Source: a virus
Lineage: Duplodnaviria; Heunggongvirae; Uroviricota; Caudoviricetes
IMG/VR virus record: IMGVR_UViG_2534681675_000023
Coordinates: 1 to 29,757 of that record
Length of the DNA stretch: 29,757 bases
Reading direction: 5' to 3' (one strand)
Shown here: positions 6,178 to 26,468 of the stretch, in pieces
Layout of the letters: each line of letters starts with the position of its first letter
How positions within the stretch are numbered: the first letter of the stretch is position 1
Notes under the pieces: generated by a model
What the model was told of the DNA's origin: nothing
What the model saw: the letters and a program-made list of their open reading frames with translations, nothing else
The model's database searches: none
Position numbers and translations under genes: made by a program

Positions 6178-6828
6178 CTATAGGCTGAACTGCACACCTT
6201 TTGCTACAGCAACAATTTTACATTCAGGTGTCAGTAAGGACGATTGATAGCGAGGATTGAGGGGGCTTAAATACACGAGTTTTCCGTCGATGACTAATTT
6301 TTTTATAGTCATAGATGGTTCGTTTGTAAGCGGATCTGGGACTATTACAGCGACGATACTACCATTTTTATATTTTTCTCTAGGCCTCATGATCACTGTG
6401 GCACCAACCGGAATGCTTGGCGACCCTGATGGGTTGTGCATAGTGTCATCAGGCATTGAAACGGCAAAATCCCCCTCCTTGACGTCAAAGAATGTGGTGA
6501 TTCTGTCGGCATTTCCCATAGTTTTCTCTCCTTCTAAAATTAGGAAAGAAATTGCTTCCCCCCATGAAAGATAGGGGATTTGGGTGCCTGAATTGTTCTG
6601 CACAAGGGTAGGTTCAGTAGACGATACTCCATATAGGAGATAGGACTCAGTAGTTCCTAGTGCTTGGGCTAATTTACTAAGAGCTTTGCTACCGGGTTCG
6701 TTTAGGTCTTTCTCCCAGTACCCTATAGTTACCCCTGTTACGCCAGAAAGCTTGCCCAGTTCGACTTGGGTCAGTCCCTTGTCTTTTCTGAGTCTCTTAA
6801 GCCTAATGCCAAGGCTTTCCATCATCAT
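6178..6828 (-). CDS. CI-like prophage repressor (HTH-XRE N-terminus + LexA/S24 peptidase C-terminus)
   Basis: 216-aa ORF; N-terminal HTH (LTQVELGKLSGVTGVTIGYWE), C-terminal S24-type autocleavage domain; divergent from Cro-like gene. Confidence 0.9.
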   Translation of the reverse strand: MMMESLGIRLKRLRKDKGLTQVELGKLSGVTGVTIGYWEKDLNEPGSKALSKLAQALGTTESYLLYGVSSTEPTLVQNNSGTQIPYLSWGEAISFLILEGEKTMGNADRITTFFDVKEGDFAVSMPDDTMHNPSGSPSIPVGATVIMRPREKYKNGSIVAVIVPDPLTNEPSMTIKKLVIDGKLVYLSPLNPRYQSSLLTPECKIVAVAKGVQFSL

Positions 6829-6920
6829 CTCCCGTGAATTGAATATAAATTATTTTAGATTGCATTGACCTAAAAAAAATTATCCTTTAATCTAAAAATA
6901 CTTAGTTTTAGGAGGGTGAA
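6829..6920. promoter_or_regulatory. Divergent immunity-switch region (OR/PR/PRM-like) with 9-bp inverted repeats
   Basis: TTTTAGATT (6853-6861) and AATCTAAAA (6889-6897) are exact reverse complements; TTGACC at 6865-6870 as candidate -35; AGGAGGG RBS precedes cro-like ATG at 6921. Confidence 0.5.
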
Positions 6921-7148
6921 ATGCGAGTTGATGAACTTGTCCAGTTTTTTGGCTCTGTTCAGAGAGTTGCCGATTTTTATGGGATAACCCGTGAAGCTAT
7001 ATACATGTGGCGCAAACGTCCTGGTGAAATAGTTCCCAAGGGGAGGGCCGCGGAAGCTGCCGCATACTCCAAGGGAAAATTATCTTTGAACCCAGAACTT
7101 TACAAAAAGAAGGATAACACCTTGAACGAAGGAAAGAATGATTCATGA
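6921..7148 (+). CDS. Cro/YdaS-like small DNA-binding regulator
   Basis: 75-aa ORF divergent from repressor, strong RBS; HTH-like segment VADFYGITREAIYMWRKR. Confidence 0.8.
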   Translation: MRVDELVQFFGSVQRVADFYGITREAIYMWRKRPGEIVPKGRAAEAAAYSKGKLSLNPELYKKKDNTLNEGKNDS

Positions 7149-7570
7149 AAATCAAGCATGAACACATCCGCATGGCTATGAATGCCTGGGCGCGTCCGGA
7201 TGGTGAAAAAGTTCCGGCGGCCAAGATAACCAGGGCTTATTTCGAACTGGGAATGACGTCCCCGGAACTGTACGACGACAGCCATCCAGAAGCCCTGGCT
7301 CGTAATACTCAGAAAATTTTCCGCTGGGTGGAGAAAGACACCACTGATGCGGTTGAAAAAATTCAGGCGTTGTTACCAGCAATCGAAAAAGCAATGCCAC
7401 CTCTGCTGGTGGCCCGGATGCGCAGCCACAGTTCAGCCTATTTTCGGGAGTTGGTGGAGACGCGGGAACGACTGGTGAGAGACGCTGATGATTTTGTCGC
7501 AGTGGCAATCGCCGGTTTCAATCAGATGAATCGTGGTGGCCCGGCAGGAAATGCTGTGGTGATGCACTAA
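7145..7570 (+). CDS. YdaT/CII-like regulatory protein
   Basis: 141-aa ORF translationally coupled to cro-like gene (ATGA overlap); position and size match Rac ydaT-type genes. Confidence 0.7.
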   Translation: MKIKHEHIRMAMNAWARPDGEKVPAAKITRAYFELGMTSPELYDDSHPEALARNTQKIFRWVEKDTTDAVEKIQALLPAIEKAMPPLLVARMRSHSSAYFRELVETRERLVRDADDFVAVAIAGFNQMNRGGPAGNAVVMH

Positions 7571-7940
7571 AAGCACGGTGTTCGGGGTTTTTTATGAGCA
7601 GCAAGCTTCATGGTCTTGTCTGGGAAGGGTGCGCCTTCACCGGCATGATCTTATCCAGGGTGGCAGTAATGGCTCGCCTTGCAGACTACAGCAATGACGA
7701 AGGTGTGTCATGGCCTGCAGTGGAGACCATTCGTCGTCAGATTGGGGCAAAGAGTGAATCAACGGTTAAAGCGGCGATAGCGGAACTGGAAAAGAACGGC
7801 TGGCTGACGAAGGAGGAGCGTAAGGTCGGTGGGCGTAATGAAAGCAATATCTACCGCCTTAATGTGGAAAAACTCGAAGCAGCAGCTGAGGCGGCGCGTG
7901 AGGCATATAAACCGAAAAGAAAAATTAGCCCGGCAAAAAA

Positions 7941-8018
7941 TGACCCGTTAACAGTTGACCAGTCAAATATTGCCCCCTCAACGGTTGACCCGTCAAATTT
8001 TGATGGATCAACCGTTGG
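7941..8018. repeat. Putative ori iterons inside the O-like gene
   Basis: GTTGACCAGTCAA (7955-7967) and GTTGACCCGTCAA (7984-7996), each with internal dyad symmetry, plus related GACCCGTTAAC / CAACCGTTGG copies; followed by GATCCGTCAG x2 in an AT-rich stretch (8055-8095). Confidence 0.6.
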
Positions 8019-8375
8019 TAAAAAACAGCCGGTTAGGGGGGCGATGGTTGGCCCCGATCCGTCAGTATTAAAACCTGATCCGTCAGATAAAAGATCTTTT
8101 CGTCCGGAAGCTTCGCAACCGGACCCGCAGACGGCTGAACAGGATTTTTTAACCCGACATCCTGATGCGGTTGTGTTTAGTGCAAAAAAACGTCAGTGGG
8201 GAACTCAGGAGGATTTGGCATGCGCACAGTGGATCTGGGGGCGAATCGTGAGTCTTTACGAACAGGCCGCCAGCGATGATGGCGAGATCACCCGACCGAA
8301 AGAACCCAACTGGACAGCATGTGAACCGCCCCGGAAATCCTGGAGACTAAACTTCCTGAGAAAGAGGTAAACAGG

Positions 8376-8702
8376 ATGACTAAAAATACTCGTTTTTCCC
8401 CCGAAGTCCGTCAACGCGCAGTTCGTATGGTTCTGGAAAGTCAGGGCGAATATGACTCACAATGGGCGGCAATTTGTTCCATTGCTCCAAAGATTGGCTG
8501 TACGCCAGAGACTCTGCGTGTCTGGGTTCGCCAGCATGAGAGGGATACCGGGAGCGGTGATGGTGGGCTCACCACCGCTGAACGTCAGCGTCTGAAAGAG
8601 CTGGAACGTGAAAATCGTGAACTGCGCCGCAGTAACGATATCCTTCGCCAGGCTTCCGCTTATTTTGCGAAGGCGGAGTTCGACCGCCTCTGGAAAAAAT
8701 AA
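8376..8702 (+). CDS. IS3-family transposase OrfA (HTH)
   Basis: 108-aa [22 protein letters not shown]…; recognised from memory as IS629-type OrfA; stop overlaps orfB start (TAATG). Confidence 0.9.
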
Positions 8703-9589
8703 TGCCACTGCTGGATAAGCTGCGTGAGCAGTACGGGGTCGGACCGGTATGCAGTGAACTGCATATTGCCCCGTCAACGTATTACCATTGTCAGCAGCAG
8801 CGGCATCATCCTGATAAACGCAGTGCCCGTGCGCAGCGCGATGACTGGCTGAAGAGAGAGATACAGCGCGTATACGATGAAAATCATCAGGTGTACGGTG
8901 TGCGTAAAGTCTGGCGTCAGTTGTTACGGGAAGGAATCAGGGTGGCCAGATGTACAGTGGCGCGCCTCATGGCGGTTATGGGACTTGCCGGTGTTCTCCG
9001 GGGTAAAAAGGTCCGCACTACCGTCAGCCGGAAAACCGTTGCCACAGGTGACCGCGTAAACCGTCAGTTCGTGGCAGAACGTCCTGACCAGCTGTGGGTG
9101 GCTGATTTTACTTACGTCAGCACATGGCAGGGCTTCGTCTATGTGGCGTTCATCATTGATGTGTTTGCCGGATACATCGTGGGGTGGCGGGTCTCATCGT
9201 CTATGGAAACGACATTCATGCTGGATGCGCTGGAGCAGGCGTTGTGGGCCCGTCGTCCGTCTGGCACCATCCATCACAGCGATAAAGGCTCTCAGTATGT
9301 GTCACTGGCCTATACGGAGCGACTAAAAGAAGCAAAACTGCTGGCATCAACAGGGAGTACAGGCGACTCGTATGACAACGCGATGGCTGAGAGCATCAAT
9401 GGTCTTTACAAAGCGGAGGTAATACACCGTAAGAGCTGGAAAAACCGTGCAGAAGTGGAACTGGCCACACTCACGTGGGTGGACTGGTATAACAATCGAC
9501 GATTGCTGGGAAGGCTGGGCCATACTCCTCCGGCAGAAGCAGAAAAAGCTTATTATGCTTCCATCGGAAACAATGATCTGGCAGCCTGA
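8702..9589 (+). CDS. IS3-family transposase OrfB (DDE catalytic domain)
   Basis: 295-aa ORF in -1 frame relative to orfA; DDE integrase-core motifs (…WVADFTYV…, …HSDKGSQY…, …DNAMAES…). Confidence 0.9.
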   Translation: MPLLDKLREQYGVGPVCSELHIAPSTYYHCQQQRHHPDKRSARAQRDDWLKREIQRVYDENHQVYGVRKVWRQLLREGIRVARCTVARLMAVMGLAGVLRGKKVRTTVSRKTVATGDRVNRQFVAERPDQLWVADFTYVSTWQGFVYVAFIIDVFAGYIVGWRVSSSMETTFMLDALEQALWARRPSGTIHHSDKGSQYVSLAYTERLKEAKLLASTGSTGDSYDNAMAESINGLYKAEVIHRKSWKNRAEVELATLTWVDWYNNRRLLGRLGHTPPAEAEKAYYASIGNNDLAA

Positions 9590-9909
9590 GTTCACAGATA
9601 AAACACTCTCCAGGAAACCCGGGGCGGTTCAATGGGCCAATGACGTGCGCATAATGCGGATGCTGGATGGCAGAACTCACAGACAAATCTGCGAAATGTT
9701 TGGTCGGGTACAGCGGGATCCATTCTGGGTAAAAAACATCATGAGCCCGTCAAAACTTCGCGATAAATGGGATGAGCTGGTTATCCGTCTGGGGCGTTCG
9801 CCTGTACAGCGTTGTGTGAATCATATTTCTGAACCTGACACCGAAATTCCACCAGGGTTCAGGGGGTAGGTATTGATTTCAGATCATGAGGTAATTTTCA
9901 GGAGGACTT

Positions 9910-23014: not shown

Positions 23015-23355
23015 TTGTTCAAAAAACGAAAGAACGGAGGTACGTATGTACGCACTGAAAAAGATTACGGTAACTGAAGATGGTCGTCAGGTTGAGGAAG
23101 TGCATGTCCTGGGGGGATATGTATCGTATGGAGTTTTACCCGCGTAATACCCATCTGGCAGCAAAAATTGAGTATTGCCGGAACGGGAATATTTCATGTT
23201 TGCAGGTAGAGAAAACGGATGAGGCTTATATCACTACGCTGAACGGCGATACGATGTCAGCGCCAATGATATAAGACAGTAATTCACCATTTGGATTGTC
23301 CGCTCCACCCAACATGTTGTTTCCTTAAGGTTCCTACACCACAAAGGGAACACTC

Positions 23356-25322
<1,967 letters not shown>

Positions 25323-25539
25323 TGACCAATAGCGGACATTAAAAATGGCGAAAAACGGCCAATAATCTTGGCGTTGACAACGATGCGTTGCATCTGTCGC
25401 GGCGACAGTAAAGCCCGGAATGAAATGGCCAGATGTCGTACTCATACCAGTGAATAACAAGTAAAACCCCGGCGGCTGAAACAACCAAGGGGTTAACAGT
25501 GTAAATAAAACTGCCCATATTGATGGGCAGCGCATGTAA

Positions 25540-25833
25540 TTATTGTGAGCAATAGACCCGAGCTTCAAGCGGAGTATAAATGCCTAAAGTAATAAAACCG
25601 AGCAATCCATTTACGAATGTTTGCTGGGTTTCAGTTTTAACAACTTTATCTGCGCCACCACAAATTTTGGCTGCATCGACAGTTTTCTTCTGACCAATTC
25701 CTGAAACGAAGAAATGATGAGTGATGGTTTCCTTCGGTGTTACTGTTGTAGGTTTGTTTTCAACTGTAAACGTCTGTTGAGCACATCCAGAGATAAGCAG
25801 CGCCAGTGTGAAAGTGAGTAGCGTTTTTTTCAT
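25540..25833 (-). CDS. bor: Bor lipoprotein (serum-resistance, Iss-like)
   Basis: 97-aa ORF with lipobox (LISGC); near-identical to lambda Bor as recalled (…KETITHHFFVSGIGQKKTVDAAKICGG…GLLGFITLGIYTPLEARVYCSQ). Confidence 0.9.
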   Translation of the reverse strand: MKKTLLTFTLALLISGCAQQTFTVENKPTTVTPKETITHHFFVSGIGQKKTVDAAKICGGADKVVKTETQQTFVNGLLGFITLGIYTPLEARVYCSQ

Positions 25834-26057
25834 CGTGTGATTCCCGTTGTGTTTTTAAGTTTGGTGCATCGTATTTGTGGAAATTTAAACAAAACCTAAA
25901 CAATGAGTTGAAATCTCATATTGTTAATGTTTATTAAAGTATGCCAGATGTGCTGTATCTTTACTGTATACCCAGATTAACTATGGCCACAGCACCGACT
26001 GGTAACTCCTGTGTGGGAGTGCCGGCTACTGAGGCGGATCAAACCGGACGTTATGGT

Positions 26058-26468
26058 TTAGCGTGGAAAAATTTGAGTCGTGTTCTGGATGCTTTCGGTA
26101 AACAATAATGAGTTGTCAAAGGTATAGTAATATCTTTTGTGTTCGTGGATATTTGTAACCCATCGGAAAACTCCAGCTTTAGCCAGATTTACCCTGTATT
26201 CATGAAATGTGATTTCTCTTGATTTCAACTTATGAAGGTAAGTTTCTATAAGTCGCGTGTCTCTGCAAAAGCTAACATGAATAACATCATGGAAACCTTT
26301 TATTAACACCGTGTTATCGCTCTCAAATACAATGTGAATATTACCTGTGGCTAAATAGTAAATGTAATGTGAGACATTGTGGCGTTTTAGTTCAGAGTAA
26401 AACCGGTCACAGTTTAAATCTTTCCGCACTTGATCAAATATTTCTTTAAAAATGGCAACCTGAGCCAT
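26058..26468 (-). CDS. YbcV-like (DUF1398-type) prophage protein
   Basis: 136-aa ORF following bor on the same strand, matching the DLP12 borD-ybcV arrangement; AT-rich gene. Confidence 0.7.

What the first reader, a model, noticed from the sequence alone, without database searches (positions are those of the whole stretch)
7594..9869. IS3-family element inserted into the replication initiator gene with intact target duplication; ori iterons preserved
The 1310-bp IS sits inside the O-like ORF with a clean 3-bp duplication (ATG), and the reading frame rejoins across the junction, so this is a simple recent insertion. The internal iterons are intact, but the initiator is split, which predicts a replication-defective prophage.
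Basis: partly seen in the sequence, partly recalled or inferred. Interest (0 to 1): 0.45.

Follow-up and report, generated by a model that had tools for sequence, protein, structure and literature searches.

The report
IS629-type insertion splits prophage replication initiator
A common E. coli jumping gene (an IS629-type insertion sequence) has recently landed inside the replication-initiator gene of a lambda-like prophage and split it in two; this is an ordinary, well-understood way for prophages to become crippled.

Summary
A 1310-bp IS3-family element lies at 8322-9631, with 25-nt terminal inverted repeats and a 3-bp ATG duplication. It sits inside a 963-bp gene (7594-9869).

Removing 1313 bp restores a 320-aa ORF. 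That ORF is 100% identical to intact genes in six complete E. coli genomes. It is contiguous in 80/80 viral-contig relatives.

The element is 97% identical end to end to annotated IS629, and 99.9% to copies in a few E. coli strains. It has intact orfA/orfB, an A6 slippery site and the ALIL frameshift pseudoknot. Nearly identical prophages carry the empty site, and no searched collection holds the filled junction. The insertion is therefore recent and strain-specific.

The split gene matches PHROG "replication initiation O-like" end to end. Its C-domain is 38% identical to lambda O. It contains five phased 15-bp iterons at the same codons as lambda's ori iterons. All lie upstream of the IS and are unchanged.

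Loss of autonomous prophage replication is the likely consequence but is untested.

Side lead: this initiator class has no P partner. It ends in a DnaT-like peptide and usually sits beside a DnaC paralogue.

Verdict: real, correctly interpreted, ordinary.

The parts
7594..8321 (+). 5' part of the replication-initiator (O-like) gene: codons 1-242 plus the first two bases of codon 243
   Evidence: Restored ORF. HTH_36 domain at residues 25-71. PHROG 391 'replication initiation O-like' matched over 1-320, E 2.7e-113.
7594..8370 (+). Truncated ORF O' as it now stands: 242 native residues plus 16 IS-encoded residues ([16 protein letters not shown]). Its stop codon TAA is at 8368-8370, 5 nt before the IS orfA start codon.
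7940..8011 (.). Five phased 15-bp iterons with core TTGACCnGTCAA, inside codons 116-140: the inferred prophage origin
   Evidence: Lambda's ori iterons lie at codons 117-145. SfIV has the same 15-bp array. The 315-aa alleles have exactly one unit fewer.
8053..8096 (.). Two further CCyGATCCGTCAG repeats 21 bp apart. They belong to a cluster of four GATC (Dam) sites at 8006, 8056, 8077 and 8093.
   Evidence: family D16; 81 GATC sites in 29.7 kb, of which 4 lie within about 90 bp here.
8319..8321 (.). Left copy of the 3-bp target-site duplication (ATG)
   Evidence: The 3-bp overlap in the empty-site genomes is shown.
8322..9631 (+). IS629-type IS3-family insertion sequence, 1310 bp, in the same orientation as the initiator gene
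   Evidence: 97.0-97.1% identity over 1-1310 to annotated IS629. 99.9% identity to copies in a few E. coli genomes.
8322..8346 (+). Left terminal inverted repeat (IRL), starting with TG
   Evidence: pair I1.
8376..8702 (+). IS orfA (108 aa, HTH_Tnp_1)
   Evidence: Maps to positions 1-86 of the IS3 transposase profile NF033516.
8694..8699 (+). A6 slippery run (AAA AAA TAA) for the programmed -1 frameshift. The predicted OrfAB fusion protein is 404 aa.
8657..8773 (+). ALIL frameshift-stimulating pseudoknot (Rfam RF01497)
   Evidence: 120.9 bits against a gathering score of 50, E 3.6e-32, full-length match.
8702..9589 (+). IS orfB (295 aa; rve DDE domain; D...D(35)E readable in the sequence), in the -1 frame relative to orfA
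   Evidence: Maps to positions 93-369 of NF033516, 310.9 bits.
9607..9631 (+). Right terminal inverted repeat (IRR), ending with CA
   Evidence: pair I1.
9632..9634 (.). Right copy of the 3-bp target-site duplication (ATG)
9635..9869 (+). 3' part of the initiator gene: the last base of codon 243 through the stop codon. It encodes the most conserved half of the lambda-O-like C-domain (WANDVR...DGRTH...FW..N..SPSKLRDKW).
9804..9866 (+). Coding sequence of the DnaT-like C-terminal tail VQRCVNHISEPDTEIPPGFRG. 14/21 residues are identical to E. coli DnaT 159-179, and 11 of the last 13.
9910..10332 (+). Downstream gene of the same rightward operon: DUF977 / Ren-like protein. No P-type or DnaC-type loader lies between it and the initiator.
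6178..7570 (.). Immunity region that drives the operon: LexA/S24-type repressor (6178-6828, minus strand), Cro (6921-7148, plus strand) and a CII-like/YdaT protein (7145-7570, plus strand)

Best explanation
What it is. An IS629-type IS3-family insertion sequence (1310 bp) transposed into the replication-initiator gene of a lambdoid prophage. In related genomes this prophage sits next to rspB. IS3-family elements transpose by a copy-out/paste-in mechanism (stated in the abstract of bioRxiv 10.1101/2023.06.07.543989). The 3-bp ATG duplication at the target is shown directly by the sequence.

When. The event is recent. Prophages that are otherwise almost base-identical carry the empty site.

The gene that was hit. 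Its product has three parts: an N-terminal winged-helix-type DNA-binding domain; a linker whose coding DNA holds five 15-bp iterons, the inferred origin; and a C-terminal domain homologous to that of lambda O, ending in a DnaT-like peptide. The DNA binding, the origin function and the helicase recruitment below are all inferred.

What the insertion does. It falls after codon 242, inside the conserved C-domain. The cell can now make only a 258-aa O' fragment, which keeps the DNA-binding domain and half of the C-domain and adds 16 IS-encoded residues. The last 78 residues have no translation start of their own. They include the most conserved motif and the tail that I infer recruits the host DnaB-DnaC helicase complex. 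The origin DNA is intact in cis.

Predicted consequence (inferred, about 70% confidence). After induction the prophage cannot start its own replication. The exceptions would be precise excision of the IS or supply of an initiator of the same iteron specificity by another prophage. Because the IS lies in the rightward early operon, upstream of the nin-like region and Q, it may also reduce late-gene expression by polarity. This last point is inferred and weaker.

Confidence. The overall figure of 0.8 combines about 0.97 for the structural account (a real, recent IS629-type insertion that splits this gene), about 0.85 for the gene being the prophage's replication initiator with an intragenic origin, and about 0.7 for the replication defect.
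For: IS anatomy and duplication.

IS identity: 97% over the full 1310 bp to deposited IS629, with identical boundaries; 99.9% to copies in other E. coli, including MFDS1019527, which carries the same prophage; ALIL pseudoknot at 120.9 bits; orfA and orfB map to positions 1-86 and 93-369 of the IS3 transposase profile; A6 slippery site and a 404-aa fusion. IS629 makes 3-4-bp duplications and is found preferentially in prophages (PMC3271280).

Empty site: the 963-bp gene is 100% identical and intact in six complete genomes. The flank alignments overlap by exactly 3 bp in three genomes.

Recency: 4 mismatches in 8321 bp plus 2 in 13625 bp against MB07081. The filled junction is absent from 5,426 genomes, from IMG/VR and from the GTDB representatives.

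Initiator identity: PHROG 391, full length, E 2.7e-113. The C-domain is 38% identical to lambda O, E 2e-27. Full-length homologues of about 58% identity in isolated phages are annotated as replication protein O. The gene is contiguous in 80/80 viral contigs.

Iterons. They occupy the same codon interval as the lambda ori iterons. SfIV has the same core motif. Copy number varies in steps of one 15-bp unit. mEp460 has a different N-domain and different repeats but the same C-domain.

Position of the cut: the insertion lies in the middle of the region aligned to lambda O (residues 166-293) and of PHROG 2357 (residues 188-308).
Against: No functional data exist for this initiator family. Both 'initiator' and 'iterons' rest on homology, position and conservation. 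Pfam and PGAP call the protein only an HTH-domain protein.

The AT-rich element expected beside an origin is weak here: GC is 0.375-0.45.

The prophage may not have been fully functional before the insertion. It carries an IS21-family element in the late region. Its relatives already annotate a frameshifted ORF just downstream of the endolysin gene and a truncated hok gene. The window ends inside the terminase gene, so the integrity of the structural genes is unknown.

E. coli genomes often hold several related O-like genes, up to six places per genome, so complementation in trans is conceivable.

IEE can excise IS3-family elements and restore genes (PMC9397093). Whether the source strain carries iee is unknown.
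Confidence: 0.8

Rival explanations
1. Neutral hit on an already decaying prophage. The prophage had lost productive growth before the IS arrived, so the insertion changes no phenotype and is one more step of decay.
For: A second IS (IS21 family, about 23255-25379) lies just after the lysis genes and is shared with MFDS1022581. Relatives annotate a frameshifted ORF just downstream of the endolysin gene and a truncated hok gene. The prophage lacks the DnaC paralogue that about 52 of 80 relatives carry beside this initiator.
Against: The initiator gene is kept intact and nearly invariant in more than 20 complete genomes and in 80/80 viral contigs. Isolated viable phages (mEp460, HannyBb) have the same layout without a dnaC paralogue. 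int, xis, repressor, cro, Q, holins, endolysin and the small terminase subunit are open in the window and annotated as intact in relatives.
Confidence: 0.3
2. A reversible or complemented defect. The split is not a dead end, because IEE-promoted IS excision restores the gene in subpopulations, or because a co-resident prophage supplies an initiator of the same iteron specificity in trans to the intact origin.
For: IEE promotes transposase-dependent excision of IS629 and other IS3-family elements, and in one documented case this reactivated the interrupted gene (PMC9943667; PMC9397093). The transposase genes of this copy are intact. The origin DNA is unchanged. E. coli genomes hold up to six places matching this gene.
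Against: Only this window is available, so neither iee nor a second initiator gene can be shown for the source strain. PMC9397093 describes gene reactivation by precise IS excision as rare and reports a low excision frequency. Complementation needs a matching N-domain, and these domains are diverse.
Confidence: 0.2
3. The interrupted gene is not a replication initiator but another HTH protein, such as a regulator. On this view the repeats merely encode a 5-residue peptide repeat (D-P/Q-S-x-V/I), and replication is unaffected.
For: Pfam finds only HTH_36, and PGAP names the product 'helix-turn-helix domain-containing protein'. A 15-bp period equals five codons.
Against: The protein matches PHROG 391 'replication initiation O-like' end to end, and most of its other PHROG hits are replication families. 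The C-domain is 38% identical to lambda O, E 2e-27. The gene follows cro and cII, the position O holds in lambda. The repeats are DNA palindromes at lambda's iteron position, with a GATC cluster beside them. No other initiator candidate was found in the early region.
Confidence: 0.07
4. The truncated O' protein has a new role. It keeps the origin-binding domain but cannot recruit a helicase. It could therefore act as a dominant-negative blocker of incoming phages that use the same iterons, which would be a form of superinfection exclusion.
For: O' retains the whole N-domain and the linker. It remains in the rightward early operon.
Against: That operon is repressed in a lysogen. The allele is unique to one strain and shows no sign of selection or spread. 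This is pure inference.
Confidence: 0.05
5. Assembly artefact: a multicopy IS was placed into the prophage by mis-assembly.
For: The IS is multicopy in E. coli, with a median of 4 places per genome.
Against: The element has exact ends, a perfect 3-bp duplication of the target and an in-frame restoration. These are the signature of real transposition and not of a collapsed repeat.
Confidence: 0.02

Closest known systems
IS629 (IS3 family, IS3 group; isoforms IS1203 and IS3411) of E. coli O157:H7 and Shigella
   Same: Length of 1310 bp with identical ends. 97% nucleotide identity over the whole element to deposited IS629. orfA/orfB with a -1 frameshift and the ALIL pseudoknot. A 3-bp target duplication and a preference for prophage targets (PMC3271280).
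   Different: About 3% divergent from the O157 reference copies. It belongs to a sub-variant found at 99.9% identity in only a few dozen records. Which named isoform is closest could not be decided without ISfinder.
Other IS629 insertions that split prophage genes in Shiga-toxin phages
   Same: The same element causes the same kind of damage. Deposited records annotate an 'exonuclease, N-terminal part', a 'single strand binding protein, N-terminal part' and a 'large terminase subunit, N-terminal part (pseudogene)' next to IS629.
   Different: Here the target is the replication initiator of a non-Stx, Rac/Qin-like prophage. This particular insertion was not found in any searched collection.
Bacteriophage lambda O protein and ori-lambda
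   Same: The initiator gene follows cro and cII. The iterons lie inside the initiator's own coding sequence at the same codon interval (116-140 here, 117-145 in lambda). The C-domain is homologous: 38% identity, E 2e-27.
   Different: The N-terminal DNA-binding domain is HTH_36, and no similarity to lambda O's N-terminal part was detected. There are five 15-bp iterons instead of four of 18 bp. There is no P gene. The C-terminus ends in IPPGFRG, where lambda O ends in WIYGVDL. The AT-rich flank is only weak.
Host dnaT-dnaC operon (primosomal protein DnaT and helicase loader DnaC)
   Same: The last 13 residues match DnaT at 11/13, at the extreme C-terminus of both proteins. In about 52 of 80 close relatives a DnaC paralogue starts 7 nt after the initiator gene. 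This mirrors dnaT lying directly upstream of dnaC (PMC5778457).
   Different: Only the tail is shared. There is no match to DnaT's N-domain or to its three-helix ssDNA-binding domain. The NCBIfam DnaT model scores 16 bits against a cutoff of 201. The role of the DnaT tail is not defined in the papers read.
Classical polar IS insertions in the lambda replication region (for example lambda r32, an IS2 insertion; recalled from memory, not verified here)
   Same: An IS in the rightward early operon that impairs expression or function of the replication genes.
   Different: As I recall, those insertions reduce O/P expression by polarity. Here the initiator's coding sequence itself is split.

Membership tests
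IS3 family insertion sequence | Length about 1.2-1.55 kb with imperfect terminal inverted repeats that begin 5'-TG and end CA-3' | tested here: met
   1310 bp. The inverted repeats are 25 nt with 22/25 matching: TGAACCGCCCCGG...CCGGGGCGGTTCA.
IS3 family insertion sequence | Two overlapping ORFs, with orfB in the -1 frame, fused by programmed -1 frameshifting at an A-rich slippery site with a downstream RNA structure | tested here: met
   orfA 8376-8702 and orfB 8702-9589 lie in frames 0 and -1. The A6 run is at 8694-8699, and the predicted fusion is 404 aa. The ALIL pseudoknot RF01497 scores 120.9 bits. The frameshifting itself was not assayed.
IS3 family insertion sequence | DDE transposase with an rve (integrase core) domain | tested here: met
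   Pfam rve E 1.1e-26. NF033516 IS3 family transposase scores 310.9 bits against a cutoff of 160. ADF...HSD...(35)...AES is readable in orfB.
IS3 family insertion sequence | Short (3-5 bp) target-site duplication | tested here: met
   ATG on both sides, a single copy in three empty-site genomes. IS629 makes 3-4-bp duplications (PMC3271280).
IS629 (isoform-level membership) | More than 90-95% nucleotide identity over the full length to the reference IS629 (the ISfinder isoform criterion, recalled from memory) | tested here: met
   97.0-97.1% over 1-1310 to elements annotated 'insertion sequence: IS629' in VT2-Sakai, VT1-Sakai and CP-1639. ISfinder itself is not available, so IS1203 and IS3411 could not be told apart from IS629.
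Lambda O-type replication initiator with an intragenic origin | C-terminal domain homologous to that of lambda O | tested here: met
   BLASTP gives 38% identity over residues 166-293, E 2e-27. The invariant columns are listed.
Lambda O-type replication initiator with an intragenic origin | Array of iterons inside the initiator's coding sequence, in the inter-domain region | tested here: met
   Five phased 15-bp units at codons 116-140, compared with lambda's at 117-145. The array is conserved in SfIV. Binding was not tested.
Lambda O-type replication initiator with an intragenic origin | AT-rich unwinding element next to the iterons | tested here: inconclusive
   GC is only modestly lower beside the array (0.375-0.45). 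There is a GATC cluster instead.
Lambda O-type replication initiator with an intragenic origin | Lambda-O-type N-terminal DNA-binding domain | tested here: not met
   Pfam reports only HTH_36 for the restored protein. BLASTP finds no significant similarity to lambda O upstream of residue 166, and the N-terminal parts align poorly.
Lambda O-type replication initiator with an intragenic origin | Partner P-type helicase loader encoded immediately downstream | tested here: not met
   The next gene is DUF977/Ren-like. Relatives carry a DnaC paralogue or nothing. It works like lambda O but is not a member of the O/P module.
DnaT (primosomal protein) | Full DnaT architecture: N-terminal oligomerisation domain, linker, and three-helix ssDNA-binding C-terminal domain | tested here: not met
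   Only residues 300-320 match DnaT 159-179. The NCBIfam DnaT model scores 16.4 bits against a cutoff of 201.

The most novel reading that the evidence does not exclude
The interrupted gene represents an uncharacterised class of lambdoid initiators. This class joins a lambda-O-like C-domain to a peptide that copies the extreme C-terminus of the host primosomal protein DnaT (SEPDxxIPPGFRG). It works with a DnaC-type loader, either a phage paralogue or the host's own, and not with P. If so, the tail would be the long-sought contact between DnaT-type proteins and the DnaB-DnaC complex (or PriA). The IS-split allele would then be a natural separation-of-function mutant: origin binding without helicase recruitment.
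Probability: 0.3. Interest if true: 0.55.

Novelty: already known. Interest (0 to 1): 0.2.

Why it matters
As given, the finding is a textbook example of prophage decay by IS insertion. IS629-type elements are already known to sit preferentially in prophages and to split their genes. The practical value is local.
- It gives a strain-specific marker, because the junction is unique among more than 5,400 complete E. coli genomes.
- It gives a clear prediction that this prophage cannot replicate on its own.
- Near-isogenic empty-site strains already exist as controls.

The more interesting by-product concerns the gene that was hit. This widespread initiator class has no P partner, carries a DnaT-like C-terminal peptide, and usually sits next to a DnaC paralogue. 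How DnaT hands DnaB-DnaC onto DNA is still described as unknown (PMC13377028; PMC5778457). These phage initiators could offer a simple genetic handle on that question.

Tried and rejected
- Filled junction. I searched for it in complete E. coli genomes (200-bp probe), in IMG/VR and in the GTDB species representatives. It was not found, so the source strain could not be named.
- C-domain family. A Pfam scan of the C-domain at E up to 1 found no family. A PDB sequence search found no solved relative apart from the DnaT tail.
- Tail motif in the literature. A full-text search for PPGFRG, IPPGF and 'DnaT-like' gave nothing relevant. Four papers on DnaT and the preprimosome did not define a role for DnaT residues 160-179. 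One of them reports that truncating residues 154-179 weakens cooperative ssDNA binding.
- Promoter and terminator scan of 6800-10400. It found no promoter-like sites, and terminator-like sites were not above chance. Polarity therefore remains an inference.
- First idea about the tail: rejected in its simple form. I first supposed that the DnaT-like tail replaces any loader gene. However, phiSTEC1589 and about 52 of 80 relatives have the tail together with a DnaC paralogue. The idea was revised: the tail goes with DnaC-type loaders, and lambda's WIYGVDL end goes with P.
- The missing P gene as a second defect: rejected, because viable phages share the layout.
- Motif count. The window-wide count of the iteron motif is not significant. 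Only its clustering and phasing are.
- Structure prediction was not run. The reconstructed protein is a concatenation that the tool might refuse, and the result would not change the verdict.
Full report
**1. Observation check**

- A 1310-bp element occupies 8322-9631.
- Its ends read TG...CA and form 25-nt inverted repeats, 22/25 complementary.
- It is flanked by a direct repeat of exactly 3 bp: ATG at 8319-8321 and at 9632-9634. Shorter and longer repeat lengths fail.
- Deleting 8322-9634 joins 7594-8321 to 9635-9869 in frame. This gives a 963-bp ORF of 320 aa without stops.

**2. What the inserted element is**

- It aligns from base 1 to base 1310, in one piece, at 97.0-97.1% identity. The matches are elements that depositors annotated as 'insertion sequence: IS629', for example VT2-Sakai 24900-26209, which is also 1310 bp. 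A sub-variant 99.9% identical to it occurs in a few dozen E. coli records.
- orfA (8376-8702; HTH_Tnp_1) and orfB (8702-9589; rve) are open. They map to positions 1-86 and 93-369 of the single NCBIfam IS3-transposase profile; orfB scores 310.9 bits against a cutoff of 160.
- orfB is in the -1 frame. The overlap CTC TGG AAA AAA TAA provides an A6 slippery run, and the predicted OrfAB fusion is 404 aa.
- The IS3-family ALIL frameshift pseudoknot is present at 8657-8773, at 120.9 bits against a gathering score of 50.
- A D...D(35)E arrangement is readable in orfB.
- IS629 is reported to duplicate 3-4 bp, to be far commoner in prophages than in the chromosomal backbone, and to have IS1203 and IS3411 as isoforms (PMC3271280).

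All defining features of the IS3 family that can be read from sequence are met. The copy looks transposition-competent.

**3. A simple, recent insertion**

- The reconstructed 963-bp gene is 100% identical to an intact annotated gene (WP_001349596.1, 'helix-turn-helix domain-containing protein') in six complete E. coli genomes. It is at least 98.9% identical in about 18 more.
- The window is collinear with three such prophages on both sides of the IS. In each case the two alignments overlap by exactly 3 bp in the uninterrupted genome: L001 12726-12728, L005 17319-17321 and L006 15319-15321. This is the signature of a target-site duplication.
- Divergence from the closest relatives is tiny: 3 mismatches in 8321 bp on the left of the IS against MFDS1022581, and 4 in 8321 plus 2 in 13625 against MB07081.
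- No complete E. coli genome among 5,426 has the filled junction. Neither do IMG/VR or the GTDB species representatives.
- One of the near-identical host lineages (MFDS1019527) carries the same IS sub-variant elsewhere at 99.9% identity. A donor copy in the same lineage is therefore plausible.

**4. What the interrupted gene is**

- *Position.* It lies in the rightward early operon, after a LexA/S24-type repressor (minus strand), Cro and a CII-like/YdaT protein. O holds the same position in lambda.
- *Family.* The restored protein matches PHROG 391 'replication initiation O-like' end to end (residues 1-320 on profile positions 1-298 of 298, E 2.7e-113). Most of its other PHROG hits are replication-initiator families.
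- *C-terminal part.* Residues 166-293 are 38% identical to lambda O 155-270 (E 2e-27).
- *N-terminal part.* This is an HTH_36 domain, and no similarity to lambda O's N-terminal part was detected.
- *Homologues.* Full-length homologues of about 58% identity occur in isolated phages (SfII, SfIV, mEp460 relatives and others) and are annotated as replication protein O. In all 80 of the closest IMG/VR relatives the gene is contiguous.

**5. The iterons**

- The pseudo-palindrome TTGACCnGTCAA occurs five times at exact 15-bp spacing: 7940, 7955, 7970, 7985 and 8000. Tandem Repeats Finder reports a 15/30-bp array.
- The motif is not enriched over the window as a whole: 15 found against 9.5 expected. 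Five sites within 75 bp, however, never occurred in 200 simulations, where the maximum was 2.
- The array spans codons 116-140. Lambda's four annotated ori iterons span codons 117-145 of O.
- SfIV, whose protein is 64% identical and alignable throughout, has the same 15-bp array with core CTGACCCGTCAA.
- mEp460 shares the C-domain but has a different N-domain and carries different repeats.
- Among close relatives, the eight 315-aa alleles have exactly one motif site fewer than the 320-aa alleles. That is one 15-bp unit.
- Two more CCyGATCCGTCAG copies and a cluster of four GATC sites follow, at 8006-8096.
- An AT-rich element is only weakly visible.

Together this supports, but does not prove, an intragenic origin. 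It lies about 310 bp upstream of the IS and is base-identical to the uninterrupted allele.

**6. The replication module is not lambda O/P**

- The next gene is DUF977/Ren-like (9910-10332). There is no P.
- This is not a second defect, because viable phages have the same layout: SfIV, mEp460 and HannyBb.
- Among the 80 close relatives, about 52 have a 248-aa DnaC paralogue starting 7 nt after the initiator's stop codon (NF009043, 506 bits; the DnaC model gives E 2e-89). About 24-27 have DUF977 directly, as in the window.
- The initiator's last 21 residues, VQRCVNHISEPDTEIPPGFRG, match the extreme C-terminus of E. coli DnaT ([21 protein letters not shown]). The match is 14/21 overall and 11 of the last 13. 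It also hits the last 20 positions of NCBI's DnaT model.
- In a small panel, O proteins followed by P (lambda, Stx2a_WGPS9) end in ...WIYGVDL. Every O protein not followed by P ends in a GFRG-type motif. These include phiSTEC1589 and phage 204576, which share only the tail with the window's protein.
- Three other PHROG families match residues 298-320 at their own C-termini.
- dnaT lies directly upstream of dnaC in the host, and how DnaT recruits DnaB-DnaC is described as unknown (PMC5778457; PMC13377028).

My inference, at about 30% confidence, is that the tail is the contact to the DnaC-type loading system. The panel is small, and no paper I could read defines the tail's role.

**7. Consequence of the insertion**

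*Shown.*
- The IS lies after codon 242. This is in the middle of the conserved C-domain and not in a linker: the lambda O alignment covers residues 166-293, and PHROG 2357 covers 188-308.
- The remaining ORF, O' (7594-8370), encodes 242 native residues plus 16 IS-encoded residues.
- The last 78 codons carry the invariant WAND...DGR.H...FW..N..SP.KLR.KW block and the tail. They are now 1.3 kb away.

*Inferred.*
- Those last 78 codons have no evident translation start of their own.
- O' can still bind the origin but cannot recruit a helicase. After induction the prophage may excise, since int and xis are open, but it cannot initiate its own replication. I put this at about 70%.
- The O' stop codon lies 5 nt before the orfA ATG, and the IS has the same orientation as the operon. 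Derepression of the prophage could therefore drive transposase expression.
- The IS may be polar on DUF977, the nin-like region and Q. The consensus scan found no clear terminators.

**8. Caveats and rivals**

- The prophage may already have been impaired. An IS21-family element (about 23255-25379, with duplication ACGA or ACGATG) sits after the lysis genes and is shared with MFDS1022581 but absent from MB07081. Relatives already annotate a frameshifted ORF just downstream of the endolysin gene and a truncated hok gene.
- IEE can excise IS3-family elements in a transposase-dependent manner and has been shown to reactivate an interrupted gene (PMC9943667; PMC9397093).
- Co-resident prophages might supply a matching initiator; there are up to six related places per genome.
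- An assembly artefact is very unlikely, given the perfect duplication.

**9. Comparison with what is known, and novelty**

Each component is known: the IS (97% to IS629, 99.9% to existing copies), the target gene (100% identical to annotated genes), and the phenomenon. Deposited Stx-phage records already annotate genes split by IS629. Only this particular allele is new. I file the finding as already known and of low interest. The one thing worth following up is the DnaT-like tail and DnaC pairing of this initiator class, which lies outside the finding as given.

Noticed in passing
window 9804-9866; also L003, L004, L087, L088, L089: The initiator ends in SEPDTEIPPGFRG, which matches 11 of the last 13 residues of host DnaT, at the extreme C-terminus of both proteins. 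The same tail sits on otherwise different O proteins (phiSTEC1589, phage 204576). Lambda-type O proteins, which pair with P, end in WIYGVDL instead.
   Followed up: partly
L019 and about 51 other IMG/VR loci, 7 nt downstream of the initiator's stop codon: Most close relatives carry a 248-aa DnaC paralogue (NF009043, 506 bits) directly after the initiator gene, mirroring the host dnaT-dnaC operon. The window's prophage, mEp460 and HannyBb lack it and go straight to DUF977/Ren-like.
   Followed up: partly
window about 23255-25379: A second mobile element: an IS21-family IS of about 2.12 kb, with open istA (23356-24528) and istB (24525-25322). It is flanked by ACGA(TG) on both sides and lies just after the lysis genes. 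It is present in MFDS1022581 and absent from MB07081 and ARS-C301.
   Followed up: partly
window 7967-7990 compared with 8763-8786: The only 24-mer in the 28.5 kb outside the IS that matches the IS at 20/24 or better lies inside the iteron array. Its partner lies in the IS at the 3' end of the ALIL pseudoknot, and contains a near-consensus iteron core, TTGCCCCGTCAA.
   Followed up: partly
window 8006-8096: Four GATC (Dam) sites lie within about 90 bp, immediately right of the iterons. The window as a whole has 81 in 29.7 kb. Such clusters are typical of origins regulated by methylation.
   Followed up: no
L011-L017 and similar IMG/VR loci (the 315-aa alleles): Eight relatives have an initiator 5 aa shorter, with four iteron-motif sites where the others have five. 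This is natural copy-number variation by one 15-bp unit.
   Followed up: partly
window 8368-8378: The truncated initiator ORF stops at TAA (8368-8370), 5 nt before the IS orfA ATG (8376), with GAGG in between. Prophage derepression could therefore drive transposase synthesis by read-through and translational coupling.
   Followed up: no
L004 3369-4334 (mEp460) compared with the window: mEp460's initiator shares a nearly identical C-domain and tail, but it has an unrelated N-terminal domain and different internal repeats (ACAGAGAATACA, 2.8 copies). This is domain shuffling in which the DNA-binding domain and the iterons change together.
   Followed up: partly
window 10797-13552: Between the replication genes and the nin-like region lies a cargo island. 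It holds a protein with a weak Abi_C match (11211-11663; E 7.5e-5, below the Pfam cutoff) and, on the minus strand, a gene annotated in relatives as a zeta-toxin family protein (12854-13552).
   Followed up: no
L006 685-4878 (MB07081, beyond the integrase end of the prophage): In the Galapagos seawater isolate, the same prophage lies next to the remains of another prophage. That neighbour encodes a subtilase-family AB5 toxin (eplA plus a binding subunit) and an enterotoxin A family pair.
   Followed up: no
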